UHGV virus genome: UHGV-0368255
Reading direction: 5' to 3' (one strand)
Length of the DNA: 38,207 nt
Source of the DNA: a virus
The notes beneath the pieces were generated by a model, which was not told the origin of the DNA, did no database searches, and was given only the letters and a program-made list of their open reading frames with translations. Each line of letters begins with the position of its first letter. Within the stretch, counting starts at the first letter, position 1. Of the stretch, positions 46 through 38,207 are shown piece after piece. The position numbers were made by a program, and so were the translations under genes.

Positions 46-172
46 GATTAATCCTCCACGGTTACGCCGCTACCCGATAAATTTGACCAGTTACGCCGGT
101 CAGCCGAAAAATAGCTTTCTCTTTAACGCCTGTAAGCTGTAAGAAGGCACAATAAAAAGCCGTTAATTTGTA

Positions 173-1099
173 TTAACGACTTGATATTCGTTCTATATAA
201 GGTGCTGTACTGCATCGACAAAATGGATGCATATTAGGAGCATTACTTCCTGGCTGCATATCGGCAACATCAAAAACTTGATTATTTAACGGTATACATA
301 GCTTGCACGCCGTTGGTTCTGCTATATAGATGTACTGGGTAATGCTTGCATCTCTATAACTTCGTTCTTGAATCCCTACCTGAACTCTAGTCGTTTCAGT
401 CACCATCAAACGTTGAGTGTTGAACTTAGTGTTTTCTCGTCCTTCAGCTGTTAAATATTCTGCCAATTTAGATGCAAGTTGCTTGGGATTTTTCCCCATC
501 GTTATACTTCTGACTAACAACCTATCTAATTCTGATTTCAATTCAGATTGATACATCCATAAGCGATCACTAAAAGACACGTCATCACTCAAAAAGGAGC
601 TGTTTATTACTAGTTCTATCAGCTTTGCATATCCACTTGAAGCAATAGTTATTTCTAAAATACCGGCTTGTCTCTTCAATTCAGCTAAACCAGCTTTTGT
701 TAATTCATTCGAAAAGTATTTATCCAATTCATTAAACAGTGAAATCAATTCAAGCCCGATATTAGCTTTTAAGAGCTCTAATCTATTTACACGCATCGTA
801 AGATTGTATAGCTTTAATTCTTGGTTTGCTGTAGGAGAAAAATCTTTCTCTTTGACATACTTCTTTGCTTTGCGAGCGAATGCTTTGACATCCATTTCAC
901 TAGCACGCTTCATCGCTTCGCTACGTGTGATTTTCTGACCATTGGAGAAACTGTCCCACTGCGCGTCTATTTCTTTTTGTATCGCATCTTGTGCGTATTG
1001 CATGCGACTTTTAATTTCTGCCATGCGCTTTTTATCATCTTTAATTTGTTGCTTTTGCCATTCTTTTTCCCGTTTGATCCAATATTCTTGGGAGTTCAT
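173..1099 (-). CDS. minor capsid / head morphogenesis protein (SPP1 gp7-like, Phage_Mu_F family)
   Basis: 308 aa ORF. C-terminal CxxC...HPxCRC motif typical of the gp7/Mu F family. Lies immediately after the portal gene. Confidence 0.75.
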   Translation of the reverse strand: MNSQEYWIKREKEWQKQQIKDDKKRMAEIKSRMQYAQDAIQKEIDAQWDSFSNGQKITRSEAMKRASEMDVKAFARKAKKYVKEKDFSPTANQELKLYNLTMRVNRLELLKANIGLELISLFNELDKYFSNELTKAGLAELKRQAGILEITIASSGYAKLIELVINSSFLSDDVSFSDRLWMYQSELKSELDRLLVRSITMGKNPKQLASKLAEYLTAEGRENTKFNTQRLMVTETTRVQVGIQERSYRDASITQYIYIAEPTACKLCIPLNNQVFDVADMQPGSNAPNMHPFCRCSTAPYIERISSR

Positions 1100-1103
1100 T
1101 TAA

Positions 1104-2603
1104 TCACTCCCCTGTTTCATCTTTTTTGTTGTTAATTACTTTTTCAACATCTGAATCAAAAATGCCAATCTGCTTTTGCGTTTCTTTATTTACTCGTTTC
1201 AACTCTGCCTGTACATCTGGAACAAAAGAAGCGAGTCCTAAGATCGTCTCTTGACTGAGTTCAGCTCCAGCATCAACCAAAGATTTCAACTCTTCCAGAA
1301 TGGCTTTAGGTAGATTAGGCGTAAATATTACACGTAAGCCTTTCAAATCGGAGTTATCCATTTCAGAAATACTTGATTTTAGGCTAAATAAAAGACGATA
1401 ACGCCGCATAAGACCTTTTTTGAATAGCCTTTGCTTTGTTGCCGTCATTTGTTCAAATCCAAATAATTTATATTTCATTGCTTCTCCTGATTGCACTCCG
1501 GAAAAATTGTCATCAGTAAGATCAGGAACCATTGAGATTTCGTGGATATCCTTGCGCACTCTGTCTTTGTATGCTTCTACACCGTTCACATCATATTGTT
1601 TGTAAATATATCCTGCAGTCACACTTGTTTTATTACCATTCACATCAGTTCCAGATTCAAGCAAAAGCATATTCGCTTCTTTCTGCTTGATGGCGTCCTC
1701 TGTGGATAGTCCTGCTGCTTCAATATCACCACTAATAACTAGAAGAGCATCGTTTAGATCAGTCATATAGTTGGCGGTATCAGACTGCCCTGCATCGTAT
1801 AGATCAATCAAAGATAGTACATCTTCATACAAGCCCATCCGAAAACGATTAGGAGAATACTCTGTAATAGGTACCTCTTTATATTCATGCGGTTCATCTT
1901 GAGGATTCTTTAACTCAATTGCTGTTAGTGTCGTCTCATCATAAGTGATACTTTTTTCTTTTGTGTATACGATTGGTTGAATGTACTGTTTATCAGCATC
2001 CTTGTTGAATCTTGTCTTAGGATACCGTACAGCCAAAATAGGCTCTCGCTTTACTGTAGTATCATATACAACAAACGTTTCAAATACATTAGCCAAATCA
2101 ACATAATCTGTATCATCTGAATCTCGATAGATAATCTCATAGGCTCTCCCATACTTATCCATATCAAGCCAGAGTTCAGCATTTAACCCATCTATGTCAT
2201 TATTAGTATTAAACTCTTCGATTTCTTTTTGTTGATTTGTGTCCTCGATTTGCACTTTTATAGGATTGCCTGTGTTGTACCCAACATCAAACGTACAAAG
2301 AACTTTTCCAAAGTTATGTGCTGATCGATGATCCGCTTTTTCCTTTTCTCTACGTCTACGGTTATCCATGATATTTGTATTTCTAGCTTTGTAATAATCA
2401 TCTAATACACTTAGCCTTTTTACCTGATATTCATGATGATGTTTTATCATTGCTGCTAAAGTATCTAAATCGTTAAGTAAATCTTCTGCTGAGCTAAACC
2501 TATAGTGAAGATTGGAATCTACGCTAAACTTTACATAATTTGTGTTCACGTCGTTAGAATAATGTATATCAGATCCATGTTCAAACTCGTTTACCTTATT
2601 CAT
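1104..2603 (-). CDS. portal protein (SPP1 gp6-like)
   Basis: 499 aa ORF between the terminase large subunit and the minor capsid protein. Size and position are typical of a siphovirus portal. Confidence 0.75.
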   Translation of the reverse strand: MNKVNEFEHGSDIHYSNDVNTNYVKFSVDSNLHYRFSSAEDLLNDLDTLAAMIKHHHEYQVKRLSVLDDYYKARNTNIMDNRRRREKEKADHRSAHNFGKVLCTFDVGYNTGNPIKVQIEDTNQQKEIEEFNTNNDIDGLNAELWLDMDKYGRAYEIIYRDSDDTDYVDLANVFETFVVYDTTVKREPILAVRYPKTRFNKDADKQYIQPIVYTKEKSITYDETTLTAIELKNPQDEPHEYKEVPITEYSPNRFRMGLYEDVLSLIDLYDAGQSDTANYMTDLNDALLVISGDIEAAGLSTEDAIKQKEANMLLLESGTDVNGNKTSVTAGYIYKQYDVNGVEAYKDRVRKDIHEISMVPDLTDDNFSGVQSGEAMKYKLFGFEQMTATKQRLFKKGLMRRYRLLFSLKSSISEMDNSDLKGLRVIFTPNLPKAILEELKSLVDAGAELSQETILGLASFVPDVQAELKRVNKETQKQIGIFDSDVEKVINNKKDETGE

Positions 2604-2615
2604 TTCTCACACTCC

Positions 2616-3860
2616 TTAAAATATGCGCTTAACACGTTTAATCTTTTCGTTGACATTAACTTTTGGTTTCTTAAGAAGCTCATGAGTATATATCGCATAT
2701 CGAACGGAGTCTAGCACATCATCATATTCTTTTATTGGCTCGCCTTTTTTCTTGTCCCAAATGTATTGATAAATTTCATCCCGAAATTTCATCACTCTAT
2801 CTTGACAGATAAACAATTTATCTTGTTTAAATCTCTTGGCGACTTCCTCAACTCCAGATAACCGTGCTTTATGAGCATTTTTAGCATTAATCTTTTCTCT
2901 TACAAATCTAGCCACATGCTCCGGTCTCGCAGAGTCACAATAAAAAGGCACTCGTAAGCCGTAACGCTCTTGAATGCCTTTTGCTACATCTACCCAATAA
3001 TCAATCTCTTCAAATTGAGTAGCATGTTCTTCGATTAAATAAACTGTTCCGTCATCCGTTTCACCTATAACTACGATTGAACCCCAGTGTTCATATCCCC
3101 AGTCAACACCACAATAAAAGTTGCTCAAAGGTGGTAAGTCTTTTGACTGGATGTAGTGCTTGCTAGCATCAAAATCACGATAAACGACACCTTCTGCAGA
3201 AACCCATAAACCTTTGATATCACGATCATAAAACATGCCGCTTGGTGTTGATTCTTTAATATTATTTCTATAGCGTTCAGATAAAAAAGTATTATCATCC
3301 AATTCAAAGTGGAACGATTGAATGTTTTTACTTGAATTGTCGATATACTCTTTCTTCAGCCAGTGTTCCGGGTTGTCAGGGTTTGTGTCAGCTAGGATTC
3401 TCGCTCCTGTTCCTGAACAACGTGAAACGATTTCAGCAAATACTTCTTGTCTAGCTAGTGATGCCTCATTGATATAAGCGCCATATGCTGTCATACCACG
3501 AATTGCACCAACACCGCCAATGTTTCCTGTATAAGCTTGTACGACCTTAACGCCAAATAACTTAAAGTTTCCATGTTTATCGAATTTAGGTTCTATGCTG
3601 TACATGTTGTATAGTTCCTGTAAGATGTTCTTTTGGATTGTTGCACTTGAAACTCCTGCTAGGATATACATTGGTTCCTTAATGTCTTCTTCATCGGCAA
3701 TCTTTCGCACACGTCGCAATTCAAACAAGAACAAATCATTGTTTATTTTTGTTTTCCCAGAACGTTTTGCTCCATGTAATAAAGTAATAAACCAATCATT
3801 CTTAATGGTTTTATTTAACACGTCGATTTGCTTTGGGTTATAAATATCAACTAGTCCCAT
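2616..3860 (-). CDS. terL: terminase large subunit (PBSX/Terminase_6-like)
   Basis: 414 aa. N-terminal Walker A-like LLHGAKRSGKT. C-terminal nuclease-like region with conserved D/E residues. Sits between terS and portal. Confidence 0.85.
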   Translation of the reverse strand: MGLVDIYNPKQIDVLNKTIKNDWFITLLHGAKRSGKTKINNDLFLFELRRVRKIADEEDIKEPMYILAGVSSATIQKNILQELYNMYSIEPKFDKHGNFKLFGVKVVQAYTGNIGGVGAIRGMTAYGAYINEASLARQEVFAEIVSRCSGTGARILADTNPDNPEHWLKKEYIDNSSKNIQSFHFELDDNTFLSERYRNNIKESTPSGMFYDRDIKGLWVSAEGVVYRDFDASKHYIQSKDLPPLSNFYCGVDWGYEHWGSIVVIGETDDGTVYLIEEHATQFEEIDYWVDVAKGIQERYGLRVPFYCDSARPEHVARFVREKINAKNAHKARLSGVEEVAKRFKQDKLFICQDRVMKFRDEIYQYIWDKKKGEPIKEYDDVLDSVRYAIYTHELLKKPKVNVNEKIKRVKRIF

Positions 3861-4413
3861 CTAATTCACCACTAATCTTTTCTAACAACTCATCAAGTTT
3901 TTCTTCGGTAGAACGCTCTGAGTTTATCTGTAATTGTTCTAATTTTGCTTGCATTAATTTTATTTCTGTTTGAGCTTTTTCTAATTGCGTTTGTGATAAC
4001 AGCGATTTATACTTCAAATACAAATCCAAGGCTTTCAATTTGCTTTCTAAATCTGGTGTATATTCATATTGCATATGTTTAATAACCTTGTTTTTCTCCA
4101 AGCGGTCTATTTGCTTGCTCACGCTTATTTGTACTTCTCCTTGCCAAATATCTATCAATTCATTTAAAGCGTCCTCAGCACTTAATTTGCGCTTCTTTTC
4201 GATAGGATTTAGCCGTTCATTAATATACTGTATTATGTTAGGTTTAGTTAGGTTTTCCTTACCTATTACTCTTGCTGATCGTTTGCTATAACCTGCTTTA
4301 ATGGCGGCTTGAGTAGCATTACCACCATTTTTTATATATTCATCCGCAAAAGCTTTTTGTTTTGGTGTCAAATTTACCACATTCAAGCCACCACCTTTCA
4401 ATTTTATTAACAA
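3847..4413 (-). CDS. terS: terminase small subunit (Terminase_2-like)
   Basis: N-terminal HTH-like NGGNATQAAIKAGYSKRSARV motif and a coiled-coil C-terminus. The true start may be the internal GTG near 4380, which follows AGGTGGTGG. Confidence 0.7.
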   Translation of the reverse strand: MLIKLKGGGLNVVNLTPKQKAFADEYIKNGGNATQAAIKAGYSKRSARVIGKENLTKPNIIQYINERLNPIEKKRKLSAEDALNELIDIWQGEVQISVSKQIDRLEKNKVIKHMQYEYTPDLESKLKALDLYLKYKSLLSQTQLEKAQTEIKLMQAKLEQLQINSERSTEEKLDELLEKISGELDGTS

Positions 4414-14424: not shown

Positions 14425-14847
14425 GTGAGTCATTTGGACAGTCAAATTGAAATGATAATTAATGAACTCGGCGTTAAGGTAGAAGAGCGTGAAAACCTTG
14501 ATGCCGATGGCCATTATGTTGCTTATATGAATACCATAGTAATAAAAGCTAATTTATCTAAGTATAGAAGACAAAGAACCTTATTACATGAATTAGGACA
14601 CGCTTCTAAACATCATGATAATTATTTTTTATATAACTTAGCATTCTCTCTCCATTCAAAAATGGAATATGAGGCTGATCGCTTCATGATTGAAAAATTA
14701 TTAGATAGATATATTGCAAAGTCTGAATTAGAACCACACAATATCAATTACATGAAATTTATAGAAGATAATAATTTAAGCGTTCGCTTCGAACCACTTG
14801 TGAAAGAATTATTAAAAGCTCGCATCTATTGTTATGCAGCTCTCTAA
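14425..14847 (+). CDS. ImmA/IrrE-family zinc metalloprotease (anti-repressor protease)
   Basis: HELGH motif. Typical genetic pairing with the XRE repressor. Confidence 0.75.
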   Translation: MSHLDSQIEMIINELGVKVEERENLDADGHYVAYMNTIVIKANLSKYRRQRTLLHELGHASKHHDNYFLYNLAFSLHSKMEYEADRFMIEKLLDRYIAKSELEPHNINYMKFIEDNNLSVRFEPLVKELLKARIYCYAAL

Positions 14848-18557: not shown

Positions 18558-18576
18558 AAGAAACGAGGGATTTTTT
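18541..18576. terminator. bidirectional intrinsic terminator (AAATCCCTCG...CGAGGGATTT flanked by A- and T-runs)
   Basis: Perfect 10-bp stem. T-run after it on the + strand and A-run before it. Lies 3' of the minus-strand defence operon. Confidence 0.6.
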
Positions 18577-19168
18577 ACATAGTTCTATGTTCTTGTGCGT
18601 ATTTAATCAAATATTCAATCATCTCGTCCATATTGGTATGCTTACAACATCTACAATCCTCTAAAAATTGTTTAATTGCATCAATATCTTGCTCCCCTCT
18701 ATTTTTTGGAAAAACTTCTAGATACTTTGCTACTTTTTTATTTGACTTAGTTTCATAAGGATATTTCATTTTCTGTAAGACGTTCTCTAAGTTATTCTCA
18801 TTATATATAGGAATAATCTCCTTTTTTAACCAATGAGAAGAAAAAGCTTGTCTATTTTTGTATTCCATAATAACTTTATTTGTAGCATCATCCAAGTCCA
18901 TTATTGGAAAAATTTTTAAATTCTGCGGATATTTTTTTTTCATTTCTATAGTATCATAGTAATTTTGAAAACCAGTATAATTTTTTAATTTTGCATTGTT
19001 TAAAAATCTTTCCAGTGATTTTCCAACTTGAATACTATTACTTCCATTCTTTTCTGACTCAATAATTATTGGAATCTTTAGGGAGCTCTTTAAATAATCA
19101 GCAATCATTTTTTCACTTTTCCCATGGCAAATAATAATAGCAGGAGGTCTTAATATATTATTCTTCAT
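18575..19168 (-). CDS. small partner protein of the ATPase (197 aa) with an E...DxD arrangement reminiscent of TOPRIM/RloB/DUF4276-type nuclease partners
   Basis: IIICHGKSE near the N-terminus and IFPIMDLDD at about residue 90. C-terminal CRCC..H cluster. The start overlaps the ATPase stop by 11 nt, so the genes are translationally coupled. Confidence 0.5.
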   Translation of the reverse strand: MKNNILRPPAIIICHGKSEKMIADYLKSSLKIPIIIESEKNGSNSIQVGKSLERFLNNAKLKNYTGFQNYYDTIEMKKKYPQNLKIFPIMDLDDATNKVIMEYKNRQAFSSHWLKKEIIPIYNENNLENVLQKMKYPYETKSNKKVAKYLEVFPKNRGEQDIDAIKQFLEDCRCCKHTNMDEMIEYLIKYAQEHRTM

Positions 19169-20510
19169 AATTTAATTCCTCGGCCATATCTTCAAAGTCT
19201 AAATCTCGTGGGTATGGAGTACCTCCAAAAGCACCATTTAAATACATTTTTGCTGGATTATTATTTGAGTCTATTTTGTATTTATCAAGTGAATCAATTG
19301 TTTTATTGCCTAATGCATCAGACTTTATGATATACATAGATTTTTTTGGCAGTTGTTCCATTAAATATGTGTCATGAGTAGTAAAAATAATTTGTCCATT
19401 AATAGACTCTATAATATTTTGTACAAGATTGTTCACCAGCAAATCATGAATACCCTCATCTATTTCATCAATAATAACCGTCTTGCCCATTGCAGCATCT
19501 ATTATTAAAGGAAGAAGATTCAGCAGTTTTTTAGTTCCTTTAGATTCTAGTTCAAATGGTATTTCAATAATTTTTGAGTCTATTGTCTTATAGCACATAA
19601 GTTCATAACTTATAGAATCGTCTTTTTCTGCTATTATATATTTCATATCTTTTATATCTGAATACAAAGATACAAAGTATTTACTAACTAATTTTTCTGT
19701 TTCCAAAATTTTATTTTTTTCTTCTTTAGCAATATGTCCTTTAATTAAATCTTCAAGTATTTTGTTTTGTTTGTAGGCCTCACTATAAAACATATCATTA
19801 TCAGAAACTGATAATGTGCCAAAATAATTTAATATTAACATTAGATTGTCAGAAAGATTATTAACAATAAAATTTTCATTAAGTTGTTTAGTATAATTTG
19901 CAATGATAGCTAAGAAAGAATGTTTCCCCCAAAGCTTTTCTATTTGCTCTAAAAAAGCATTGTTCAAATTGGAATTTTTAAACACACTCGGACTGAGATT
20001 GATATTAATTTTATTTTCAAATTTGTTTACTTTAAAAAATTGGCGTTTTCGTTTATCTACTAAATAGCTTAAACGTTCCATTACTAGCTCACTTTTATCG
20101 TTAAATTCTAAATCATAAACTCCTGAGTGTCCATTTAGAATAAATTCATATGATAAACTCATATTTTTTTCTTTTGAATTAATTGTTTTGCAATTTTTTA
20201 CTATATTTGTTAAAGAAGAATATTTATTTCCAAAAAATATTGTATCTATGTGATATTTATTAAGAGCAAATTCCTTTTCCTCGTTAAGCTCCATCATATT
20301 TCGTACTTCATTGTACTTATCCAACTTATTTAATGTATCAGTTGATAATACAAGGATTGAAAATAGATGGATAATATTGCTTTTTCCGGAACCATTTTCT
20401 CCGTAAATACTAATTACATTTTTAGCCACTTTTTTTTGTTTATTTTTATTAAAATCAATAGATAATTTAGGGAAATTCTTATAATTCTGCACTTTCACTT
20501 TACTAAACAT
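19158..20510 (-). CDS. ABC-type (AAA_15/AAA_21, SMC/RecF-like) ATPase, upstream gene of a two-gene candidate abortive-infection/defence cassette
   Basis: Walker A GENGSGKSN near the N-terminus. Walker B VIIDEIDEGIHD and H-loop FTTHD near the C-terminus. AAGGAGGG RBS before the ATG at 20510 (the track extends to 20546). Own TTGACA-16-TATTTA promoter. Confidence 0.65.
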   Translation of the reverse strand: MFSKVKVQNYKNFPKLSIDFNKNKQKKVAKNVISIYGENGSGKSNIIHLFSILVLSTDTLNKLDKYNEVRNMMELNEEKEFALNKYHIDTIFFGNKYSSLTNIVKNCKTINSKEKNMSLSYEFILNGHSGVYDLEFNDKSELVMERLSYLVDKRKRQFFKVNKFENKININLSPSVFKNSNLNNAFLEQIEKLWGKHSFLAIIANYTKQLNENFIVNNLSDNLMLILNYFGTLSVSDNDMFYSEAYKQNKILEDLIKGHIAKEEKNKILETEKLVSKYFVSLYSDIKDMKYIIAEKDDSISYELMCYKTIDSKIIEIPFELESKGTKKLLNLLPLIIDAAMGKTVIIDEIDEGIHDLLVNNLVQNIIESINGQIIFTTHDTYLMEQLPKKSMYIIKSDALGNKTIDSLDKYKIDSNNNPAKMYLNGAFGGTPYPRDLDFEDMAEELNYEE

Positions 20511-20721
20511 TTTAATTCCCTCCTTTAAGTATAATTTATCATACATTATGTCTTAATTAAATAGAATAAGCTTATTATTTGTCAATTTATTTTTATGTAC
20601 TGCCCCTCTGAATGTTCTGAGAGATTTTTTTATCGTTTTGGAATGTATATGCACCACCATATATGAAATTTTTAAGACTCCTTCTAGTTATTATGATAAT
20701 ATTTTACTTGGAGGTGAAATT

Positions 20722-26364: not shown

Positions 26365-28110
26365 CTAATACGTGAAATTGCGATTAGTGTAGTGGCCCAC
26401 ACCTTGTACTTTAATCGTACGTTTTGCCGTATCAATTTGTACGTTTGCGAACCCTGCTTCATTCGCTGTGTTGTATTCCTCTTCGGAAGGAAAAGCTTTT
26501 GTTCCTACAATGATTGGCGTTGTACCTAGATATTTCACTGTTTCATAGTGCCAATGCCCCGCAAAGATTGCCGCAACTGTTCCGCGTCCTTTTGTTGCGA
26601 AGTTGTAAGTCTTTTGTCCCATAGGACTCGGGTTGTAACCGTTCATTGTATTGTAATCAATAGTTACGCTTGCTCCTTGTTTGAAGCCGTCTAGTAAGGT
26701 TCCTAGTTTCGTCACGTTTGCTACGTCGTTTTCTCTTTCCATAGGTACATGTCCTACAATTACAACGTGATAGCTTCTATCAAGTTGTTCTAACCATTGT
26801 CCAAAGGCATGCAATTGGTTTTGCCCTAGTTTTCCATGAGGAAACTCAGCACCGTTGTAATATCCAGAAAACTCGATGAATTTTCCTTGTGAGTTCGTAT
26901 GATCTTCGAAGTCATCGGTATCGATACGGTAAATCGCAACTTTTTTGTTAGGGAACAAATTAGGGCCGTAACGGCTATCATATGCTACGGCAATATCCGA
27001 TCCTGTCAACGAATCGAGCCGTGAACGTCCGTCGTTTGCGTATGGGATTTTACCTGTTTCGTGGTTACCACGGCAAAGAATGATCGGAACTTCTGCTCCT
27101 GCTGTCGCTACGCTAGCAAAGCGTTTCAACACGTGTAAGTTCTTCGCGCGTCTTTCTTGTTCGGTATAAGGATAAATACCCGACGCTGTTCCTCCACTGT
27201 ATCCATCGATATTATCCCCGCCGTATACCATCGCGTCCGTAAAGGTTTCTAGCGTTCTAAATTGCCCGACGATATTCCAGCGGCGTTCCATCTTGTCTTT
27301 TTGGTCAAAGTGATCGGCAAATTGTTGGTGTGAATCGACGTGCGTGTCCGTGATAAACCCCATGTTGAACTTAGTTTTGTCCGCTTGTGCGATCACTGTA
27401 TCTAAGTTAGTAGGACGAACCCAGTTATACGATCCTCTGTCGTAGAAAAGTTTGTCTCTTTTGATTGGCACTTGTTCTGCACCTTTAGGAACATTGAATG
27501 TTTTATTTTGAATATCATCTAAGCGAGCGGCTAAACTGTCATAATCTCCTTTTGCTTCATTCAAAATGTCAATGATCGTACCACCTGGATCGATATTTTC
27601 CAGTATTTCACGATTATCTTCTAACCACTGCTCCCAGTCATTTTTGCCCTGATCCATGTAATCTTTGAATTTTCTTAGCAAATCCTCAAAGGTCCACACA
27701 TAGCCAGAATCACGTAACTGGCTTCTAGATATTCCAGAAATGACTCGATAGGTAAAATCCTGTGTGCTAAATTGTTCACTCCAAGTTCCATCACCATTAA
27801 GTGATCGGAAACTGAAATGTGCGGTGTTTTCACCACCCCATTGCCAGTCAGGCTCACTTAAGGTGTAAACAAGCCTTGCTTGTGCTGGACTGTATTCTTG
27901 TACTTTTTGTTCAACAGGTTGGTTTTCGCCAAATTTTGTTATATTAATAAAAAATGGCACTAGGCCATCGAATGTTTTTAGTTTGCCATGTTCCACCACT
28001 TCAACAACGAACTTTTGCGTTAAAACATCCCCTTGCCGAATTCGAACCAAATTTATTCCGTTATTTGGTTCGGTGGTGGATAGGACCATTTTATGTTGCG
28101 TTTCTGCCAC
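26365..28110 (-). CDS. tail/baseplate protein containing a calcineurin-like metallophosphoesterase domain
   Basis: Motifs GDNIDGY, CRGNHETG, VIVGHVPM and GHWHYE give the GDxxD/GNHE/GH/GHxH metallophosphatase signature. Probable GTG start at 28110 with a GGAGGG RBS. The track ATG at 28185 overlaps the upstream gene by 62 nt. Confidence 0.55.
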   Translation of the reverse strand: MAETQHKMVLSTTEPNNGINLVRIRQGDVLTQKFVVEVVEHGKLKTFDGLVPFFINITKFGENQPVEQKVQEYSPAQARLVYTLSEPDWQWGGENTAHFSFRSLNGDGTWSEQFSTQDFTYRVISGISRSQLRDSGYVWTFEDLLRKFKDYMDQGKNDWEQWLEDNREILENIDPGGTIIDILNEAKGDYDSLAARLDDIQNKTFNVPKGAEQVPIKRDKLFYDRGSYNWVRPTNLDTVIAQADKTKFNMGFITDTHVDSHQQFADHFDQKDKMERRWNIVGQFRTLETFTDAMVYGGDNIDGYSGGTASGIYPYTEQERRAKNLHVLKRFASVATAGAEVPIILCRGNHETGKIPYANDGRSRLDSLTGSDIAVAYDSRYGPNLFPNKKVAIYRIDTDDFEDHTNSQGKFIEFSGYYNGAEFPHGKLGQNQLHAFGQWLEQLDRSYHVVIVGHVPMERENDVANVTKLGTLLDGFKQGASVTIDYNTMNGYNPSPMGQKTYNFATKGRGTVAAIFAGHWHYETVKYLGTTPIIVGTKAFPSEEEYNTANEAGFANVQIDTAKRTIKVQGVGHYTNRNFTY

Positions 28111-28123
28111 GACTATCCCTCCT

Positions 28124-30970
28124 TTAGAAATTGATATAGTCTCTTGCATTATGGAAATGGCCAGAAGAAGATGGATAAAATTCATCCATAAATTGGAAAT
28201 GAAGATGTTCTCCAGTTGATGGTCCCGTTGTCCCCATCAGTCCAATTTGCTGACCAGCAGTTACTTTTTGACCTTTTGAGACATCCACACGGCTTTGATG
28301 TGCATAACCTGTATACATTCCATCAGCATGTTTGATTACTGTCCAGTTTCCATACCAGTCATAATAGTTCGCATCTCCTGCAACGATCACTTCGCCATCT
28401 GCTGAAGCAAATATAGGTGTATTAGGGTTTCCATTTACAAGGTCAATACCGTTATGAAACTCTTGTGCTCCTGTGATTGGAGAAGTGCGCCAGCCAAATT
28501 CGCTCGTCACTGTGATTGGATCTGCAATTGGTTTTATATATCCTTTTGATGCAGGAATTTCCAAATCTTTAAATTTGTCATACCATTCTTGTGCCCATGT
28601 CGTCCGTTCTGGATGTGGATCACGTGGACGTTCAAAGTTAGCCACGAATGCTTGTGCTGCTATGTTGATATCGGTCAGATTCATGAATTGTGTCCATGTA
28701 TAAGGATAAGCGCTAGTTGCGATCCATTGACCATTTGGTGCATGCCACATCAACAATTTGAACTGCGCCGTGATCGTGTCTGGATCATCACTGATGCCAG
28801 CCTTTGTCATTAAATTGGTCATGTAGACACGTCCGCTAGTTGCGCCAGAAGAATCGGTCCATTGCCATACACCATAACCGAACCCAGGTGCGCCATTACC
28901 CTCATCGGCGGTTGGATTAGCATCTGATTCTCCTTGAGCATTTCCAAGTAAGGCTGCAGCAGCTTGTTTAGTAAAGCCTGCACCTATAGCCATTGCCCAA
29001 ATCTGCCAATAACGTTTATCCCGATCAGTAGTCACTTCTGGTGGATATTGTCCATTCCAACCGTTATCGTTTCCTCCGGTATTGTCTCCTCCATTATTGC
29101 CACCACCGTTTGTATCGATTTTAACGCCATTCACATATAATTCTTTGACATCTAGACGGCCATCCATGGTTATATTCCCTTTTGAAAATTTACCATCACC
29201 GTAAAGATTATATTTACGCTTATCAGCAGTAACATCTGCTGGAATTTGAAAAACAGGATTTCCTCGATCGCCGCCGTCCCCAGCGTTAATGGAAAAAATA
29301 TAGTTTGGTTCTTTCCATACAGCAAACCCATTTATTTTTCCGCCTCCATAAGTCGCTACGATGGATCCAAGCGATTCTCCGTGAACATCGTCAAGCCCAG
29401 TTGAAATGACCTTTTTTTCAAAAGAAAGTTGTCCTCCTTCTGCCACTAATTGGAAATCTTTATCATCCAATGTCTTTAAAGCTACCCCTTGCACGAGAAT
29501 ACCTGAAAGAATTCCTGCTTTAATAAAATTAGCATTGAAAGTTCCATCCAACGTCCACGCAGTCGTACTATCGCCATTGTGTACATCTTGGATTGTTTTC
29601 CATTCACCTTTCTTACACTGTTTGAAAGATATTCCTGAGTTATTTTGGACCATAAAAAAGCGTGATCCAGGAATGTTAGGTCCATCCATATAAACAGTTT
29701 CATAGATTTCTCTACTATCACTAACACCAGCTTCAATTCCATTTACCCAATAAATAGAACCGCCATTATCTCCTGCGCCTCGCATAATGTCATCTTGATA
29801 TTTTCCAATCTCTGTTGATTCGTAAAATGTCATTTTGCTAGATTCTAAACTATTAATATTATTGACAATAGAAGCCGTTTGTTTTCTAACATCTTGTGTT
29901 AAATTATCCCCTAGTTCGATATTCGTTTGACCGGTAAGCCGATTGAATGTAGTTTTATAAATACGAGTTTTATAGTGATAACCTTTATCGTATCTGTGAA
30001 TAGTCACTGTATTTCCTATCACATCTCCTCCAGTGACTTCAGCTTTGAATTGTACTAACGGTCTAGCAGAATCGATTAAGGTTGAATAAGTATTTTTAAG
30101 TAATTCTGTTGGATCATCTATATCATCAAACACTACTACGGTTTCTCGTTTTCTCATTGATCCATCTTTTTGTGGTATCCCATACTTTTGAGTTGCTTCC
30201 GGATCTTCAAGCCAATTTTGGCCTTTAGGCTTATCTAAAGGATCACCATTCGACTTTTTCCATTCAACATCAGTGAATTCAATTCTTCTACCGTATCCGT
30301 CACCAACCTCTTCGCCTCGCCCACGACCTATCATTGAAGTTGAGATTGAGCTTCTATCTATCTCTCTTACAACTGTTAATGCTTTACTACCATATACAAA
30401 ACGTGTATTCGATTCTTCACCAATTTGTTCATATACTTCGATCCATTTATCCTTTATTCCATCAGAATTCAAAGAACACCTAAAGACAAATTCCATGCCT
30501 AAGGTTTGCAATTCTTTCAACGCTTCTTTTACAGAGACATAGTAAAAAGTTGCAGTTACTGTTGGTAACATTGCTTCTACGTGACCAACGCGCCAATTTC
30601 CTTCAGTAAATTCAATCAATCGATCAAGAACGTTTTTTAAGGGCTGCCCACTCGGCCTAATATCTTTGATGATGTAAGCATCTAATTCATTTGTCGCAAA
30701 TCCTAACCCTGTAAACTCTAATGTTTCAGATGGGTCGCTAACTTTAGTAATTCGATACAACGAAAAAGACGACTCGTTTTCACGAATCGCCATATATCTT
30801 GCATCCTCTATTTCTTTATCATATTTTGTCGTAACGTAAAGAGTATCTTTCATTAGATCACTCTTATCAGAACTAATTTCTTTTTCTTGGGAGACTTCAA
30901 TTAAACTTCTTTTATTTTTTCTTTTAATAAGTTTTTGCAAGTGATCAAAGAAATAAACTGTCTCACTCAA
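28124..30970 (-). CDS. tail-associated lysin (Tal): tail endopeptidase N-domain, central region, phage-tail-lysozyme-like domain and C-terminal M23 peptidase
   Basis: 948 aa. GNAQGESD...GYGVWQWT is lysozyme-like. HNGIDL...GYAH...GEHLHFQF are M23 motifs. Confidence 0.7.
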   Translation of the reverse strand: MSETVYFFDHLQKLIKRKNKRSLIEVSQEKEISSDKSDLMKDTLYVTTKYDKEIEDARYMAIRENESSFSLYRITKVSDPSETLEFTGLGFATNELDAYIIKDIRPSGQPLKNVLDRLIEFTEGNWRVGHVEAMLPTVTATFYYVSVKEALKELQTLGMEFVFRCSLNSDGIKDKWIEVYEQIGEESNTRFVYGSKALTVVREIDRSSISTSMIGRGRGEEVGDGYGRRIEFTDVEWKKSNGDPLDKPKGQNWLEDPEATQKYGIPQKDGSMRKRETVVVFDDIDDPTELLKNTYSTLIDSARPLVQFKAEVTGGDVIGNTVTIHRYDKGYHYKTRIYKTTFNRLTGQTNIELGDNLTQDVRKQTASIVNNINSLESSKMTFYESTEIGKYQDDIMRGAGDNGGSIYWVNGIEAGVSDSREIYETVYMDGPNIPGSRFFMVQNNSGISFKQCKKGEWKTIQDVHNGDSTTAWTLDGTFNANFIKAGILSGILVQGVALKTLDDKDFQLVAEGGQLSFEKKVISTGLDDVHGESLGSIVATYGGGKINGFAVWKEPNYIFSINAGDGGDRGNPVFQIPADVTADKRKYNLYGDGKFSKGNITMDGRLDVKELYVNGVKIDTNGGGNNGGDNTGGNDNGWNGQYPPEVTTDRDKRYWQIWAMAIGAGFTKQAAAALLGNAQGESDANPTADEGNGAPGFGYGVWQWTDSSGATSGRVYMTNLMTKAGISDDPDTITAQFKLLMWHAPNGQWIATSAYPYTWTQFMNLTDINIAAQAFVANFERPRDPHPERTTWAQEWYDKFKDLEIPASKGYIKPIADPITVTSEFGWRTSPITGAQEFHNGIDLVNGNPNTPIFASADGEVIVAGDANYYDWYGNWTVIKHADGMYTGYAHQSRVDVSKGQKVTAGQQIGLMGTTGPSTGEHLHFQFMDEFYPSSSGHFHNARDYINF

Positions 30971-33806: not shown

Positions 33807-34205
33807 TTATTTATTTGCTTTTTTAATCAGATTGACCAGTTCGCTGTCTATTACCTCTTTTACTCCGATAATTTCTTGCTCTTTTTGTTTATAATCAAAG
33901 AAAGATTTGAAGGTTTGATAAATCGGAACTTGTTTTTTACCTTTTTTCTCTTGTGCTTGAACTTCGTAATTTTTCCAAGCGGCAAGATGAATCAAATATT
34001 CTTTGTCTAACATTTTTAACTGATGAGCTTTTTGTCTTAGTCTGTATTCGCTTATTGTTAAGCGATCCATTTGATTAAAATCATTTATTCCCAAATAACG
34101 TAGACAATTCAATTGAAACTCTTCATAAATTTCATCAAAATCTATCTTTTTTGTAATTCTTCTAGAAGTTGGTTTGTCTTCAATTTTGTAAATTCCGACT
34201 TTTTT
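33807..34205 (-). CDS. tail assembly chaperone GT-type frameshift extension (-1 frame relative to 34142..34486)
   Basis: Frame open from 34220 to 33807 with no ATG start (the track begins at a TTG). It is entered from the upstream ORF at the A_AAA_AAG heptamer (34199..34205). Confidence 0.6.
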   Translation of the reverse strand, partial: KKVGIYKIEDKPTSRRITKKIDFDEIYEEFQLNCLRYLGINDFNQMDRLTISEYRLRQKAHQLKMLDKEYLIHLAAWKNYEVQAQEKKGKKQVPIYQTFKSFFDYKQKEQEIIGVKEVIDSELVNLIKKANK

Positions 34206-34486
34206 AACTCTTCTAAAACATCATCAAACAACTGCTCGCTACCATTTTCTTCAATGTAATCTGCAATTGCGATCTCACTTACTTTCGGTGTTTCTGTTGA
34301 ATTAGCAACTTTCAACATCTCTACAAGAGTTTCTACATCTTTATTAAGAAAATTTGATAATATTGTTTCCATTCCCATTTTCATCGTTAACCCTTGTTCA
34401 GTCACAGAATATCGACGATTCATCTCTTTAATGAATCCATAACCAAAAATAAAATCATATTCTTTTTCCTTTATAACTAGCCTCAT
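34142..34486 (-). CDS. tail assembly chaperone (G-like)
   Basis: 114 aa acidic protein between the major tail and tape measure genes. Contains the slippery site near its 3' end. Confidence 0.65.
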   Translation of the reverse strand: MRLVIKEKEYDFIFGYGFIKEMNRRYSVTEQGLTMKMGMETILSNFLNKDVETLVEMLKVANSTETPKVSEIAIADYIEENGSEQLFDDVLEELKKSEFTKLKTNQLLEELQKR

Positions 34487-36432: not shown

Positions 36433-36726
36433 CTAACTAGCAGGTTGACCTGTCACATTGATTGAAGTAGTGAATTCTCCAGAAGTAAATGTGAATGTTG
36501 CTGATCCTTCTGCTGCAATCGTTCCATCAAAACCACCATTTTCATTTTTGGTCACTGTTGCGATAGCTCCATCACTTGAAGTTGCTGTAGTAGCTGCAAC
36601 AACAGTAGCTGCATCGCTAGCATCTGCAGGCATAGCTGAAATAGTAAATGTTTTAGTATCGCCTACTTTACCGGTCCATGTCTTTTGATTTGGCACAATA
36701 CCGGTAGCAGGCGTTACGCTTTTGGG
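36433..36726 (-). CDS. Ig-like (Big_2-type) domain appended to the major capsid protein by a -1 programmed frameshift
   Basis: The frame is open from 36744. There is no RBS, and the only in-frame start is a GTG. The slippery heptamer C_CCA_AAA (36720..36726) lies in the last codons of the capsid gene. The extension is T/S/A-rich and beta-rich, as in Ig-like decoration domains. Confidence 0.55.
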   Translation of the reverse strand, partial: PKSVTPATGIVPNQKTWTGKVGDTKTFTISAMPADASDAATVVAATTATSSDGAIATVTKNENGGFDGTIAAEGSATFTFTSGEFTTSINVTGQPAS

Positions 36727-37637
36727 GAAATCTTCCCAAATGCTTCATCTTTTACAATCATAAATCCAACATCCATTGTTGCACGCAAAGCAATCAGTTC
36801 TTGCTCAAACAAGTTAACTGGGGTTCCATCTTCATTAGTTAAAGTAGACAATTGGGCTTCTTCAGAAATCTTAAATGAAATATTATATGGGATTCCATAA
36901 AACATGTAATTAAAGTCTCCAGCGTAAAGAGTTCCTTTATCTAAAGACTTAAGGTCTACTACTGGTAATCCGTCAATTGTATTAGCAGAGCGATCATAAA
37001 TAAACTCAACATTTGACCCGACTGTTTGAGCTGCAGAACGTAATTCTGTACGATTTTTTCGGTTTGAAATAAACGCATTAGGTTCAAATTCATTTTCTGC
37101 TAATTTGTCTTCTAAGGCTAGGATATTATCATAAGTCAATCCGCCTTCAACCACATTCCCCGCACTAATAACTGATCCGTCTAGTGACTGAGGAAATGGG
37201 TTTTCTTTATTTAATAAGGCAGCTGCATCAAATTTTTTATAGAAAGCTTCAGCAATTTTTGGCTGCATCTCCTCAAAGAAATCTGATAATTTATAATTTA
37301 AATATTCACGAGAAACCGGAAGAATGACACCGAGTTTTTTTGCAGTCATCGTAGCTTGCATCCATTTAGGTTTAGACGTTTTAATTTTTTCACCTTCACC
37401 CACCCAGTATGCGCCTGGTCCTTCAGCAAAGTATTCAAATTTCTTTTCTTTGTCAGTCATTTCTTCGTATTTTGCTAACTGCATGATCTTAGAGTTTTCC
37501 ATAACTTCACTCAAAATGAGCGTATTATATTTATCAGGAATTTTTCCCTCTTTCGTTTCATATACCATAACATTATCTGGATCCCATGTTTGAGCAAACA
37601 TTTGCAAGTTCATAGGTAAAAGTTGTTTCTTTTTCAT
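36714..37637 (-). CDS. major capsid protein
   Basis: 307 aa. Follows the scaffold gene. N-terminal MKKKQLLPMNLQMFA pro-sequence. Confidence 0.8.
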   Translation of the reverse strand: MKKKQLLPMNLQMFAQTWDPDNVMVYETKEGKIPDKYNTLILSEVMENSKIMQLAKYEEMTDKEKKFEYFAEGPGAYWVGEGEKIKTSKPKWMQATMTAKKLGVILPVSREYLNYKLSDFFEEMQPKIAEAFYKKFDAAALLNKENPFPQSLDGSVISAGNVVEGGLTYDNILALEDKLAENEFEPNAFISNRKNRTELRSAAQTVGSNVEFIYDRSANTIDGLPVVDLKSLDKGTLYAGDFNYMFYGIPYNISFKISEEAQLSTLTNEDGTPVNLFEQELIALRATMDVGFMIVKDEAFGKISPKA

Positions 37638-37649
37638 TAAGTTTTCCTC

Positions 37650-38207
37650 CTATTTGATAATTCGATTTTTAGCAGCTAGTTTAGCTACGGTTTCTTTAGT
37701 ATTTTTCGATGCTGTAAATTGCCCACCTTCATTTGGTGGTGTTTGTCTTGCGTTTTCTTTCTTAATCAAAGAGGCAAAGTTAGCGATGACTGCTACAGCT
37801 TGTTTTGTGGCATCTGCATCATCAGAAACAATCAGCCCAAGTAAATCATCATCGTGTGGTAAATTTGCATCTGTCAGCATTTTAGAAGCTTCTTTCGTCA
37901 TTTCAGATAGTGCCTGTCCACGCTTTAATTCAGCGATTTCAGCTTCTTTTTGTTTCAACTCATGCTGTAGTTTTTCTTCCGCATTCATTTTTGCCAGCTT
38001 TTTAGCTTCTTCTTTTTTTGCTTCTAGTTCTTTTTCCCACGCTGCTTTTGCTTTGTTTGTCTCAGCAGCAATCATTTTCGCTACTTCATCACGAGAAAAT
38101 GTTTTGCCAGTATTGTTTTCTTCTTTTGCTGTGGGCGGTGTCTCTTGTGAGCCAGCTGGTAGGTTTCCTTTTTGTCCCTCATCACCAGATCCATCATCTC
38201 CTGGTTC
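37650..38207 (-). CDS. scaffold protein (partial in the window; the upstream part runs off the 3' end with no start, and the first 15 codons are at 45..1)
   Basis: Coiled-coil K/E/A-rich protein directly upstream of the major capsid gene. The frame stays open through 38207. Confidence 0.7.
   Translation of the reverse strand, partial: EPGDDGSGDEGQKGNLPAGSQETPPTAKEENNTGKTFSRDEVAKMIAAETNKAKAAWEKELEAKKEEAKKLAKMNAEEKLQHELKQKEAEIAELKRGQALSEMTKEASKMLTDANLPHDDDLLGLIVSDDADATKQAVAVIANFASLIKKENARQTPPNEGGQFTASKNTKETVAKLAAKNRIIK

What the first reader, a model, noticed from the sequence alone, without database searches (positions are those of the whole stretch)
36714..38207. Scaffold and major capsid proteins both carry a ribosomal-protein-L27-like N-terminal pro-sequence (MNLQFF-S / MNLQMF-A), and no prohead protease gene is present
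The capsid starts MKKKQLLPMNLQMFA|QTWDPD. The scaffold starts at 45..1 with MKKRLFMPMNLQFFS|EPGDDG. Firmicutes L27 proteins carry an N-terminal xNLQxFA extension that the host cysteine protease Prp removes. Some staphylococcal phages, 80alpha for example, mimic this motif on their scaffold and capsid proteins and rely on host Prp instead of encoding a prohead protease. This genome has no protease gene between portal and capsid, which fits the same strategy.
Basis: partly seen in the sequence, partly recalled or inferred. Interest (0 to 1): 0.55.

Follow-up and report, generated by a model that had tools for sequence, protein, structure and literature searches.

The report
Enterococcus phage head proteins mimic pre-L27
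The scaffold and capsid proteins of this temperate Enterococcus phage each begin with a 14-residue tag copying the removable N-terminus of the host's ribosomal protein L27. The phage has no head protease, so it most likely borrows the host's L27-processing protease Prp, as Staphylococcus phage 80alpha is known to do.

Summary
The capsid gene (37637..36714, minus strand) starts MKKKQLLPMNLQMF'AQTWDPD. The scaffold gene crosses the circular junction in frame (45..1 plus 38207..37650) and starts MKKRLFMPMNLQFF'SEPGDDG. Both proteins are direct homologues of 80alpha gp47 and gp46 (E 3e-101 and 6e-21), and the motifs align.

I found no head protease and no Prp homologue in the genome. Enterococcus genomes carry the L21-Prp-L27 operon, and their L27 starts ...MNLQ(F/L)F'A.

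- Prp cuts between Phe and Ala. The predicted mature ends are therefore AQTWDPD (not QTWDPD) and SEPGDDG.
- "Relies on" overstates it. In 80alpha cleavage is dispensable, and many relatives of this protease-less head module have no tag at all.

Comparative results:
- Close relatives have capsids that start MAQTW..., directly after the scaffold stop codon, and their scaffolds always keep the tag.
- Among 76 prophage loci the counts were both tagged 27, scaffold only 10, capsid only 2, neither 35.
- Fourteen Lachnospiraceae-type loci with both proteins tagged encode their own Prp-family protease just upstream of the scaffold. None of the other 62 loci does.

Verdict: a new, experimentally untested member of a known kind.

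The parts
1..45 (-). 5' end of the scaffold gene: codons 1-15, MKKRLFMPMNLQFFS. It continues across the circular junction at 38207.
   Evidence: Colinear with the B1578 scaffold.
4..45 (-). Scaffold propeptide, residues 1-14 (MKKRLFMPMNLQFF). The predicted Prp cut is between Phe14 (nt 6..4) and Ser15 (nt 3..1).
   Evidence: The motif aligns with 80alpha gp46 KFNLQFF'A. The F'A/S cleavage rule comes from PMC5744158 and PMC9405229. P6-P1 (MNLQFF) is identical to several Enterococcus pre-L27 sequences.
53..57 (-). Shine-Dalgarno site GGAGG, 7 nt upstream of the scaffold ATG.
   Evidence: Sequence read.
37650..38207 (-). Remainder of the scaffold gene: codons 16-200 plus the stop. DUF4355, homologous to 80alpha gp46, with the conserved C-terminal ...KNRIIK.
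   Evidence: Pfam PF14265, 6e-22. PDB chain 6b0x_a, E 6e-21, aligned to the last residue.
36714..37637 (-). Major capsid protein gene, 307 aa, HK97 fold, homologous to 80alpha gp47.
   Evidence: Pfam PF05065, 5.8e-35. PDB chain 6b0x_A, E 3e-101. 55% identical to the 80alpha capsid protein.
37596..37637 (-). Capsid propeptide, residues 1-14 (MKKKQLLPMNLQMF). The predicted Prp cut is between Phe14 and Ala15 (37595..37593).
   Evidence: Aligns with 80alpha KLNLQHF'A. Natural relatives start MAQTW exactly at this boundary.
37646..37651 (-). Shine-Dalgarno site AGGAGG, 8 nt upstream of the capsid ATG, just after the scaffold stop.
   Evidence: Sequence read.
46..172 (-). 127-nt non-coding spacer between the minor head gene and the scaffold gene. 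Lachnospiraceae-type relatives carry a phage prp gene at this position; here it is empty. A terminator-like hairpin lies at 182..157.
   Evidence: No ORF in any frame. Phage prp lies directly upstream of the scaffold in L014 and related loci. Terminator scan.
173..1099 (-). Minor head protein (Mu F / SPP1 gp7 type), homologous to 80alpha gp44. It is not a protease.
   Evidence: Pfam PF04233, 5e-16. phrog_115, 2e-112. BLASTP against 80alpha gp44: 31% identity, E 2e-37.
1104..2603 (-). SPP1-type portal protein.
   Evidence: Pfam PF05133, 7.9e-98.

Best explanation
This is the head module of a temperate Enterococcus siphophage of the 80alpha type: SPP1-like portal, Mu-F minor head protein, DUF4355 scaffold, HK97-fold capsid protein, and no protease gene.

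Both the scaffold and the capsid protein are made with a 14-residue N-terminal propeptide. Its last six residues (MNLQFF and MNLQMF) copy the removable N-terminal extension of Enterococcus pre-L27 (...MNLQ[FL]F'A). The host cysteine protease Prp is encoded between rplU and rpmA and normally matures L27. It most likely recognises P6-P1 of these tags and cuts after Phe14. That would release capsid protein starting AQTWDPD and scaffold starting SEPGDDG, before or during procapsid assembly. The conserved scaffold C-terminus (...KNRIIK) then binds the capsid protein as in the 80alpha procapsid.

Shown here: the motifs, the homology, the absence of a phage protease, and the presence of Prp and a matching pre-L27 in the host genus.

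Inferred: that cleavage happens and where.

Inferred by analogy with 80alpha and from the comparative pattern: the tag matters mainly on the scaffold, possibly for folding or assembly rather than for cleavage as such, and the capsid copy is dispensable.
For: Homology and motif alignment:
- The capsid protein matches 80alpha gp47 at E 3e-101 and the scaffold matches gp46 at E 6e-21. The tags align with KLNLQHF'A and KFNLQFF'A.
- The minor head protein is a gp44 homologue.

The tags are not chance:
- MNLQxF[AS] occurs twice against 0.0023 expected.
- Both genes have a Shine-Dalgarno site at Met1.
- The tags are conserved in 120 database homologues and 80 IMG/VR loci.

No phage protease:
- None was found by Pfam or PHROGs.
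- No Prp was found by tblastn.
- The unassigned ORFs 18575-19168, 20638-21300, 5182-5700 and 13038-13454 are absent from phage B1578, which has the same tagged scaffold and capsid proteins.

Host prerequisites:
- Enterococcus genomes have L21-Prp(PF04327)-L27.
- That Prp carries the GHA...DIVC[AS] dyad motif. The L004 copy matches solved Prps 2IDL, 4PEO and 7KLD.
- Enterococcus L27 starts ML..MNLQ[FL]F'A (PMC9405229 Table 2).

Chemistry (PMC9405229):
- P1 Phe, P3 Gln and P4 Leu are as Prp requires.
- P1' is small (Ala or Ser); L. rhamnosus L27 has FF'S.
- P2 is tolerant: 80alpha capsid protein has His there and is cleaved.

Comparative evidence:
- 14 of 27 loci with both proteins tagged encode their own PF04327 Prp directly upstream of the scaffold, against 0 of the 49 others (Fisher p = 3e-8).
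- Capsids that start MAQTW four codons after the scaffold stop mark the boundary.
- When only one protein is tagged it is the scaffold in 10 loci and the capsid in 2. Among close relatives the scaffold is tagged in all 79 loci where it could be read, and the capsid tag is missing in 10 of the 80 loci. This matches 80alpha genetics: pre-cleaved capsid protein is viable, pre-cleaved scaffold is not (PMC5744158).
Against: - There are no proteomic or biochemical data for this phage or for any Enterococcus phage. The held literature has none.
- The exact host strain is unknown, so the host evidence is at genus level.
- Each species' Prp is said to be tuned to its own L27 (PMC9405229). The residues after the cut (AQTW, SEPG) differ from L27 (AHKK), and P2 Met in the capsid tag is not seen in the L27 sequences sampled.
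- In 80alpha cleavage is not needed for viability, so 'borrowing a protease for maturation' may overstate the role.
- An unrecognised protease fold among the small unassigned ORFs cannot be formally excluded.
Confidence: 0.8

Rival explanations
1. The tags are real but are not cleaved in Enterococcus. They act only as N-terminal folding, assembly or chaperone-docking peptides, and the likeness to L27 is a relic of an ancestor that had its own Prp.
For: In 80alpha, uncleavable scaffold and capsid proteins give viable phage, and only the presence of the scaffold N-terminus is essential (PMC5744158). Relatives with a phage prp gene exist, so the tag could be inherited from such an ancestor. The capsid tag is lost repeatedly without apparent harm.
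Against: The invariant residues are exactly the ones Prp reads: P4 Leu/Ile, P3 Gln, P1 Phe, and a small P1' (PMC9405229). The scaffold P6-P1 (MNLQFF) is identical to Enterococcus pre-L27, not to the Lachnospiraceae-type xLQLF. This argues for continued selection for recognition by the host enzyme. Natural tag-less capsids begin exactly at the predicted cut.
Confidence: 0.1
2. The tags are cleaved, but by a protease other than host Prp. Candidates are an unrecognised phage-encoded enzyme or another host or mobile-element protease such as the Ntn-hydrolase Rrp.
For: In S. pneumoniae TIGR4 a protease carried on a mobile element (Rrp) can process pre-L27 without Prp (bioRxiv 10.64898/2026.08.10.744006). 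Several small ORFs in the window have no family assignment.
Against: No protease-like domain lies in or near the head module. The unassigned accessory ORFs are missing from phage B1578, which has identical tags. Rrp is described as non-specific and rare. In the homologous 80alpha system the enzyme was shown to be Prp (PMC5744158).
Confidence: 0.06
3. The resemblance to L27 is coincidental or an artefact of start-codon choice, and the true proteins lack the tag.
For: Internal Met codons exist: Met9 in the capsid gene, and Met7 and Met9 in the scaffold gene.
Against: The motif occurs twice against 0.0023 expected. Strong Shine-Dalgarno sites sit before Met1 and none before the internal Met codons. 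Starting at Met9 would still leave MNLQxF. The tags are conserved at protein level across hundreds of homologues and co-occur with phage prp genes.
Confidence: 0.01

Closest known systems
Staphylococcus phage 80alpha gp46 (scaffold) and gp47 (capsid), processed by host Prp (Wall et al. 2015; Kizziah et al. 2017, PMC5744158; PDB 6B0X)
   Same: The scaffold (DUF4355), capsid protein (55% identity), minor head protein (gp44 type) and SPP1-type portal are all homologous. The gene order is the same and there is no phage protease. Both the scaffold and the capsid protein carry an N-terminal tag ending xNLQxF'(A/S) that copies the host pre-L27.
   Different: The host genus is Enterococcus, not Staphylococcus. 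The tag follows the Enterococcus L27 form (Met at P6, MNLQ) rather than the staphylococcal KLNLQ. It has a basic MKK(R/K) leader in place of the acidic ME(E/Q) of 80alpha. The scaffold has Ser at P1' and the capsid tag has Met at P2. Cleavage has been shown for 80alpha and only inferred here.
Pre-L27 (bL27) N-terminal extension of Bacillota and its protease Prp (MEROPS C108, PF04327)
   Same: The same recognition motif and predicted scissile bond (F'A/S). P6-P1 of the scaffold tag is identical to several Enterococcus L27 sequences.
   Different: Only the propeptide is shared. The phage proteins have no Ribosomal_L27 domain, the residues after the cut are unrelated (AQTW and SEPG versus AHKK), and the phage tags are 4-5 residues longer. 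This is mimicry of a substrate, not homology of the proteins.
Lachnospiraceae/Clostridia prophage head modules with a phage-encoded Prp (phrog_4478 'peptidase'; e.g. Dorea sp. 5-2 prophage L014, Dorea phage DO134P1)
   Same: The capsid protein is 68-72% identical to the window's. These modules have a DUF4355 scaffold and a Mu-F minor head protein, and both scaffold and capsid protein carry xLQLF'(A/G) tags.
   Different: They carry a 95-119 aa PF04327 protease gene directly upstream of the scaffold. In L014 its stop overlaps the scaffold ATG. The window has only a 127-nt non-coding spacer at that position and no Prp anywhere.
Tag-less members of the same head module (Streptococcus phage SMP, Listeria phage A118, Staphylococcus phage 3MRA)
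   Same: Homologous capsid proteins (38-51% identity). SMP and A118 show the same scaffold-then-capsid gene order with no protease annotated in the fetched stretch; in 3MRA no scaffold gene is annotated.
   Different: No propeptide on the capsid protein (all three) or on the annotated scaffold (SMP, A118). The capsid protein begins at the position that corresponds to the cut site.
HK97/lambda-type prohead maturation (phage protease S78/U35/ClpP, delta domain)
   Same: HK97-fold capsid protein (PF05065), and removal of an N-terminal segment.
   Different: There is no phage protease and no delta domain. A separate scaffold protein is used, the removed segment is only 14 residues, and the enzyme is a host ribosome-maturation protease.

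Membership tests
80alpha-type head module whose scaffold and capsid are host-Prp substrates | Capsid protein homologous to 80alpha gp47 (HK97 fold, PF05065) | tested here: met
   PDB chain 6b0x_A, E 3e-101, aligned over residues 2-305. PF05065, 5.8e-35.
80alpha-type head module whose scaffold and capsid are host-Prp substrates | Scaffold homologous to 80alpha gp46 (DUF4355), encoded immediately upstream of the capsid gene | tested here: met
   PF14265, 6e-22. PDB chain 6b0x_a, E 6e-21, aligned to the C-terminal residue. The genes are adjacent, 12 nt apart.
80alpha-type head module whose scaffold and capsid are host-Prp substrates | An L27-like tag, (N/D)LQxF followed by a small residue, within the first ~15 residues of both proteins | tested here: met
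   MNLQFF'S and MNLQMF'A at residues 9-15. Two occurrences against 0.0023 expected. They align with the 80alpha motifs.
80alpha-type head module whose scaffold and capsid are host-Prp substrates | No phage-encoded prohead protease | tested here: met
   Pfam and PHROGs on ORFs of 70 aa or more. tblastn with Prp queries found nothing. Limit: an unknown protease fold in an unassigned ORF cannot be excluded.
80alpha-type head module whose scaffold and capsid are host-Prp substrates | Host encodes Prp and a long pre-L27 with the matching motif | tested here: met
   Tested at genus level only. Enterococcus contigs carry L21-Prp(PF04327)-L27. L27 N-termini are ...MNLQ[FL]F'A (PMC9405229 Table 2). The closest phage infects Enterococcus sp. 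VKM B-1578. The window's own host strain is unknown.
80alpha-type head module whose scaffold and capsid are host-Prp substrates | Both proteins are actually cleaved at F'A/S by Prp in infected cells | not testable with these tools
   This needs N-terminal mass spectrometry or Edman sequencing, or an in vitro Prp assay. Indirect support: natural capsids start MAQTW at the predicted boundary.
Head modules with a phage-encoded Prp-family protease (phrog_4478) | A PF04327 gene directly upstream of the scaffold gene | tested here: not met
   The window has a 127-nt non-coding spacer there and no Prp-like sequence anywhere. The gene is present in L014-L022, L025, L036, L056, L059, L068 and L172.
HK97/lambda-type protease-dependent capsid maturation | A protease gene (S78/U35/S14/S49) between the portal and capsid genes, and a delta domain or a scaffold fused to the protease | tested here: not met
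   Between the portal and the capsid gene lie only the Mu-F minor head protein and the DUF4355 scaffold. The PHROG label 'head maturation protease' (phrog_595) on the Mu-F protein covers only its N-terminal 303 of 513 profile positions and is outscored by phrog_115 'minor head protein'.
Ribosomal protein bL27 | Ribosomal_L27 domain (PF01016) after the extension | tested here: not met
   Pfam finds only PF05065 and PF14265 in the two proteins. The likeness is confined to the propeptide.

The most novel reading that the evidence does not exclude
The L27-like tag and a Prp-family protease together form an old prohead protease-substrate pair. It belongs to the DUF4355-scaffold plus PF05065-capsid head module found throughout Bacillota phages.

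Some lineages (Lachnospiraceae prophages) still carry the protease gene next to the scaffold. Others, including this Enterococcus phage and 80alpha, have lost it and outsource the cut to the host's ribosomal Prp, keeping their tags tuned to the host pre-L27. Still others have dropped the tags altogether.

The scaffold copy is always kept while the capsid copy is repeatedly lost. This would mean the tag's real job is on the scaffold: folding or assembly control, or docking of Prp as an assembly factor.

It also raises the possibility that the bacterial L27 extension and Prp system and the phage system share an origin.
Probability: 0.35. Interest if true: 0.65.

Novelty: new member of a known kind. 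Interest (0 to 1): 0.42.

Why it matters
For this phage alone the result is an annotation-level insight. It predicts the mature ends of the two main head proteins and a dependence on a host enzyme that is being pursued as an antibiotic target.

The wider value is comparative. The papers I could read, up to 2026, still describe the L27-like extension as a feature of "some staphylococcal bacteriophages" and call it intriguing and unexplained (bioRxiv 10.1101/2025.08.01.668195; 10.64898/2026.08.10.744006).

This window and its relatives show four things:
- The tag is widespread in Bacillota prophages.
- It is tuned to the host.
- It is kept preferentially on the scaffold.
- In one branch it is paired with a phage-encoded Prp.

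Together these form a natural series that makes the function and origin of the tag testable: phage Prp present; host Prp only; tag on scaffold only; no tag. It also implies that Prp inhibitors could affect the assembly of such phages.

Tried and rejected
- **Mu-F protein (173..1099) as a hidden protease.** phrog_595 is labelled 'head maturation protease'. I rejected this: the match covers only the Mu-F part of a longer profile, the best hit is 'minor head protein', Pfam gives Phage_Mu_F, and the protein is a homologue of 80alpha gp44, which is a minor capsid protein (PMC5744158).
- **M78/ImmA (14425..14847) and the M23 domain of the tail lysin (28124..30970) as head proteases.** Rejected: one is a lysogeny-switch module and the other a cell-wall hydrolase.
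- **Unassigned ORFs as candidate proteases.** 18575-19168, 20638-21300, 5182-5700 and 13038-13454 are absent from phage B1578, which has the same tagged proteins.
- **Phage-encoded Prp in the window.** None found.
- **Capsids starting MAQTW as gene-calling artefacts.** Rejected: the scaffold stop lies 4 codons upstream in frame and an AGGAGG site precedes the ATG.
- **A looser motif pattern.** It gave false positives (LKDL'G in Lactobacillaceae scaffolds). I tightened it to [LIVM]Q.[FH] followed by A, G or S.
- **Two apparent tag-less scaffolds in IMG/VR.** One has Phe at P1' (L118) and the other is a frameshifted contig (L153).
- **Literature.** Wall et al. 2015 is not held. Motif-string and Enterococcus-phage searches found no earlier report outside Staphylococcus. 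A search that included 'C108' was swamped by unrelated papers.
- **Structure prediction.** Not run, because homology to solved 80alpha structures already fixes the folds.
Full report
**What is in the window.** The window is a complete, circularly permuted genome of a temperate siphophage, 38.2 kb long. Its closest deposited relative is Enterococcus phage vB_ElaS_B1578, at 98.5% identity over the head-to-tail region. IMG/VR holds many contigs with a 99-100% identical capsid gene.

On the minus strand the late genes run in this order:
- small terminase, 4413..3847
- large terminase, 3860..2616
- SPP1-type portal, 2603..1104
- Mu-F minor head protein, 1099..173
- scaffold, 45..1 joined to 38207..37650
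- major capsid protein, 37637..36714
- connector and tail genes

The scaffold ORF runs across the window ends in frame. It gives a 200-aa DUF4355 protein that is colinear with the B1578 scaffold (194 of 201 positions identical).

**Check of the observation.** The capsid protein starts MKKKQLLPMNLQMFAQTWDPD. The scaffold starts MKKRLFMPMNLQFFSEPGDDG. Both ATG codons have a Shine-Dalgarno site at the right distance (GGAGG and AGGAGG); the internal Met codons do not.

MNLQxF followed by Ala or Ser is expected 0.0023 times in the six-frame translation. It occurs twice, both times within the first 15 residues of neighbouring head genes. The two other NLQxF matches lie in frames with nearby stop codons.

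**What the two proteins are.** The capsid protein matches the solved 80alpha major head protein (6B0X and related entries) at E 3e-101 over its whole length. The scaffold matches the 80alpha scaffold chain at E 6e-21, through to the last residue. In both alignments the tags sit opposite the 80alpha sequences KLNLQHFA and KFNLQFFA. The Mu-F protein is a homologue of 80alpha gp44 (31% identity, E 2e-37). This is therefore the 80alpha head module in an Enterococcus phage.

**Is there a phage protease?** I ran Pfam on 50 ORFs of 70 aa or more, and PHROGs on the long ORFs without a Pfam hit. Only two peptidase domains turned up: M23 in the tail lysin and M78/ImmA in the lysogeny module.
- One PHROG label on the Mu-F protein reads 'head maturation protease' (phrog_595). 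It is outscored by 'minor head protein' and covers only the Mu-F part of the profile.
- tblastn with Enterococcus Prp proteins (E<=10) and phage Prp proteins (E<=1e-3) finds nothing in the window.
- Four ORFs have no assignment: 18575-19168, 20638-21300, 5182-5700 and 13038-13454. All four are absent from B1578, which has the same tagged proteins, so they cannot be part of head maturation.

**Host side.** Enterococcus contigs carry rplU, a 115-116 aa PF04327 gene, and rpmA in a row. That protein has the His/Cys dyad motif (GHA...DIVC[AS]), and the L004 copy matches the solved Prps 2IDL, 4PEO and 7KLD. Enterococcus L27 proteins begin ML(M/L)(K/Q/S)MNLQ(F/L)F'A(H/T)KKGG. The published E. faecium sequence is MLLSMNLQLF'AHKK (PMC9405229, Table 2). 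The scaffold's P6-P1 (MNLQFF) is identical to several of these.

**Correction of the cut site.** Prp cuts between Phe and Ala. [quoted passage not shown]

The predicted mature ends here are therefore Ala15 for the capsid protein (AQTWDPD) and Ser15 for the scaffold (SEPGDDG), not Gln16 and Glu16. Ser at P1' is normal: the site accepts only small residues, and L. rhamnosus L27 has FF'S (PMC9405229). Met at P2 of the capsid tag is plausible, because the 80alpha capsid protein has His there and is still cleaved.

**Natural experiments in relatives.** Among the 120 closest database homologues, all at least 70% identical:
- about 60 carry (N/D)(L/I/V)QxF' before the conserved mature start;
- about 45 carry variants with K, Q, H or E at P5;
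- 15 begin directly MAQTW.

In two such contigs the scaffold stop lies four codons upstream in frame and an AGGAGG site precedes the ATG, so these are true tag-less capsids. Their scaffolds keep MPLNLQFF'A and KMNLQFF'A.

In 80 IMG/VR loci of close relatives, every scaffold that could be read (79) is tagged and 10 capsids are not. Five contigs pair a scaffold N-terminus identical to the window's with MAQTWNPDNV.

A scan of one genome per species gave 76 usable prophage loci from about 25 genera of Bacilli, Clostridia, Tissierellia and Negativicutes. The counts were both tagged 27, scaffold only 10, capsid only 2, neither 35, and 2 without a readable scaffold.

Across these loci P4 is Leu, or occasionally Ile or Met. 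The pattern used to detect tags fixes P3 as Gln, P1 as Phe or His, and P1' as Ala, Gly or Ser, so those positions were not free to vary; within those limits P1 is Phe in all but one tag and P1' is mostly Ala. P5 to P8 vary. These are the residues Prp is reported to read (PMC9405229).

Streptococcus phage SMP, Listeria phage A118 and Staphylococcus phage 3MRA have homologous capsid proteins with no tag (SMP and A118 also have untagged scaffolds). Their capsid proteins begin at the position of the cut.

**A phage-encoded Prp in sister lineages.** Fourteen of the 27 loci with both proteins tagged encode a 95-119 aa PF04327 protein. All 14 are Lachnospiraceae/Clostridia prophages, with capsids 68-72% identical to the window's. 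The protein scores E about 1e-19 against PF04327 and also matches phrog_4478 'peptidase'. It has the GHA...D(I/V)VCA(G/A) motif and sits directly upstream of the scaffold gene. In Dorea sp. 5-2 its stop overlaps the scaffold ATG, and the gene order is Mu-F, Prp, DUF4355 scaffold, capsid.

None of the other 49 classified loci has such a gene within 3 kb (Fisher p = 3e-8), and neither does the window. This is the strongest sequence-level evidence that the tag is a Prp-family substrate in this head module. It also shows that the Enterococcus lineage, like 80alpha, lacks the enzyme.

In the deposited phage collection the protein is rare (8 of 50,697 records) and is annotated at most as 'peptidase'.

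**How the tag follows the host.**
- Enterococcus phages mostly have Met at P6 (PMNLQ, KMNLQ, PMHLQ), like Enterococcus L27.
- Staphylococcal phages have LK(L/F/A)NLQ, like S. aureus MLKLNLQFF'A.
- Bacillus-group prophages have LKLDLQYF'A or LKLNLQYF'S, against B. subtilis MLRLDLQFF'A (PMC9405229).

Within a prophage, the scaffold and capsid tags agree at the variable positions more often than in shuffled pairs (2.24 against 1.21 of 5 positions; 0 of 20,000 shuffles reached the observed value). This test does not correct for relatedness among prophages, so it is suggestive only. I could not fetch each host's own L27.

**Mechanism.** The best-supported account is substrate mimicry. Host Prp, whose normal job is to mature pre-L27, cuts both head proteins after Phe14.

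By analogy with 80alpha, cleavage precedes or accompanies procapsid assembly. It is not the trigger for expansion and is not essential. The intact scaffold N-terminus, in contrast, is needed to make capsids (PMC5744158). The comparative asymmetry found here agrees with that genetics: the scaffold tag is always kept and the capsid tag is often lost.

The module can work with no proteolysis at all, yet related modules do carry a dedicated Prp.

**Comparison with the literature.** Prp processing of the scaffold and capsid protein is established for 80alpha. The same group notes the motif on the capsid protein of phage 80 and the tail protein of phi13 (PMC5744158). Their 2025-2026 preprints still speak of 'some staphylococcal bacteriophages' (10.1101/2025.08.01.668195; 10.64898/2026.08.10.744006).

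In the held library I found no report for Enterococcus phages, and none of phage-encoded Prp genes next to tagged scaffolds. The original 2015 paper and Wall's thesis could not be read, so earlier mention elsewhere is possible.

**Verdict.** This is a new, experimentally untested member of a known kind, of moderate interest. The interest comes mainly from the comparative series it belongs to.

Noticed in passing
window 18575..20546 (-): An AbiLi-like ATPase (19158..20546; PADLOC AbiLi 1.9e-45, Pfam AAA_21) sits beside an unassigned 197-aa partner ORF (18575..19168), between the lysogeny and lysis modules. Both are absent from the close relative vB_ElaS_B1578. This is probably a prophage-borne abortive-infection cassette.
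   Followed up: partly
PQ554527.1 (hits H2, H4, H64): The record 'Acinetobacter phage D2SVT' (host given as A. baumannii AB5075) has a capsid 99.7% identical to this Enterococcus-type phage and 94-98% DNA identity over large parts. According to the Prp literature, Gram-negative bacteria such as E. coli lack Prp and the long L27 (not checked for A. baumannii). The host label looks doubtful, possibly from contamination or a mix-up.
   Followed up: no
L014-L022, L025, L036, L056, L059, L068, L172 (about 1 kb upstream of the capsid gene): Lachnospiraceae/Clostridia prophages with capsids 68-72% identical to the window's encode their own Prp-family cysteine protease (PF04327, phrog_4478) directly upstream of a tagged scaffold. 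In L014 the prp stop overlaps the scaffold ATG (ATGA).
   Followed up: yes
L057, L058, L066 (prophages in a Bacillus sp. RH52 MAG, Bacillus sp. ISL-45 and 'Chryseobacterium sp. ISL-80'): Both scaffold and capsid carry a different shared N-terminal tag, ...VNIKQF followed by D or E, in place of xLQxF'A. This may be a variant cleavage motif. The same prophage in a 'Chryseobacterium' assembly from the same isolate series suggests contamination.
   Followed up: no
L118 (IMG/VR), scaffold N-terminus: A near-identical scaffold has Phe instead of Ser at P1' (MNLQFF'FEPGD). That position is reported to accept only small residues. It is either a sequencing error or a naturally uncleavable variant.
   Followed up: no
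window 157..182 (-): A terminator-like hairpin with a T-run lies immediately after the Mu-F gene and before the scaffold gene. This suggests the scaffold and capsid genes are expressed at a level different from the portal and minor head genes.
   Followed up: partly
window 33807..34486 (-): A tail assembly chaperone (34142..34486, PF12363) is followed by an ORF (33807..34112) that matches only the C-terminal half of the PHROG chaperone profile. This is the usual arrangement for a programmed frameshift pair.
   Followed up: no
window 26365..28185 (-): A baseplate or tail-fibre protein with a BppU N-terminal domain also carries a calcineurin-like metallophosphoesterase domain (PF00149, 3.3e-08).
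   Followed up: no
P0025-P0120 and L014 3001..4200: Many capsid homologues of the Lachnospiraceae type are about 400 aa long because of a C-terminal Ig-like domain (PF18316, SbsC C-terminal). It is probably a built-in decoration domain and is absent from the window's capsid protein.
   Followed up: no
L012 ('Veillonella sp.' MAG): This MAG contig carries a head module essentially identical to that of Enterococcus phage IME197, with the same scaffold and capsid tags. It is likely a binning artefact.
   Followed up: no
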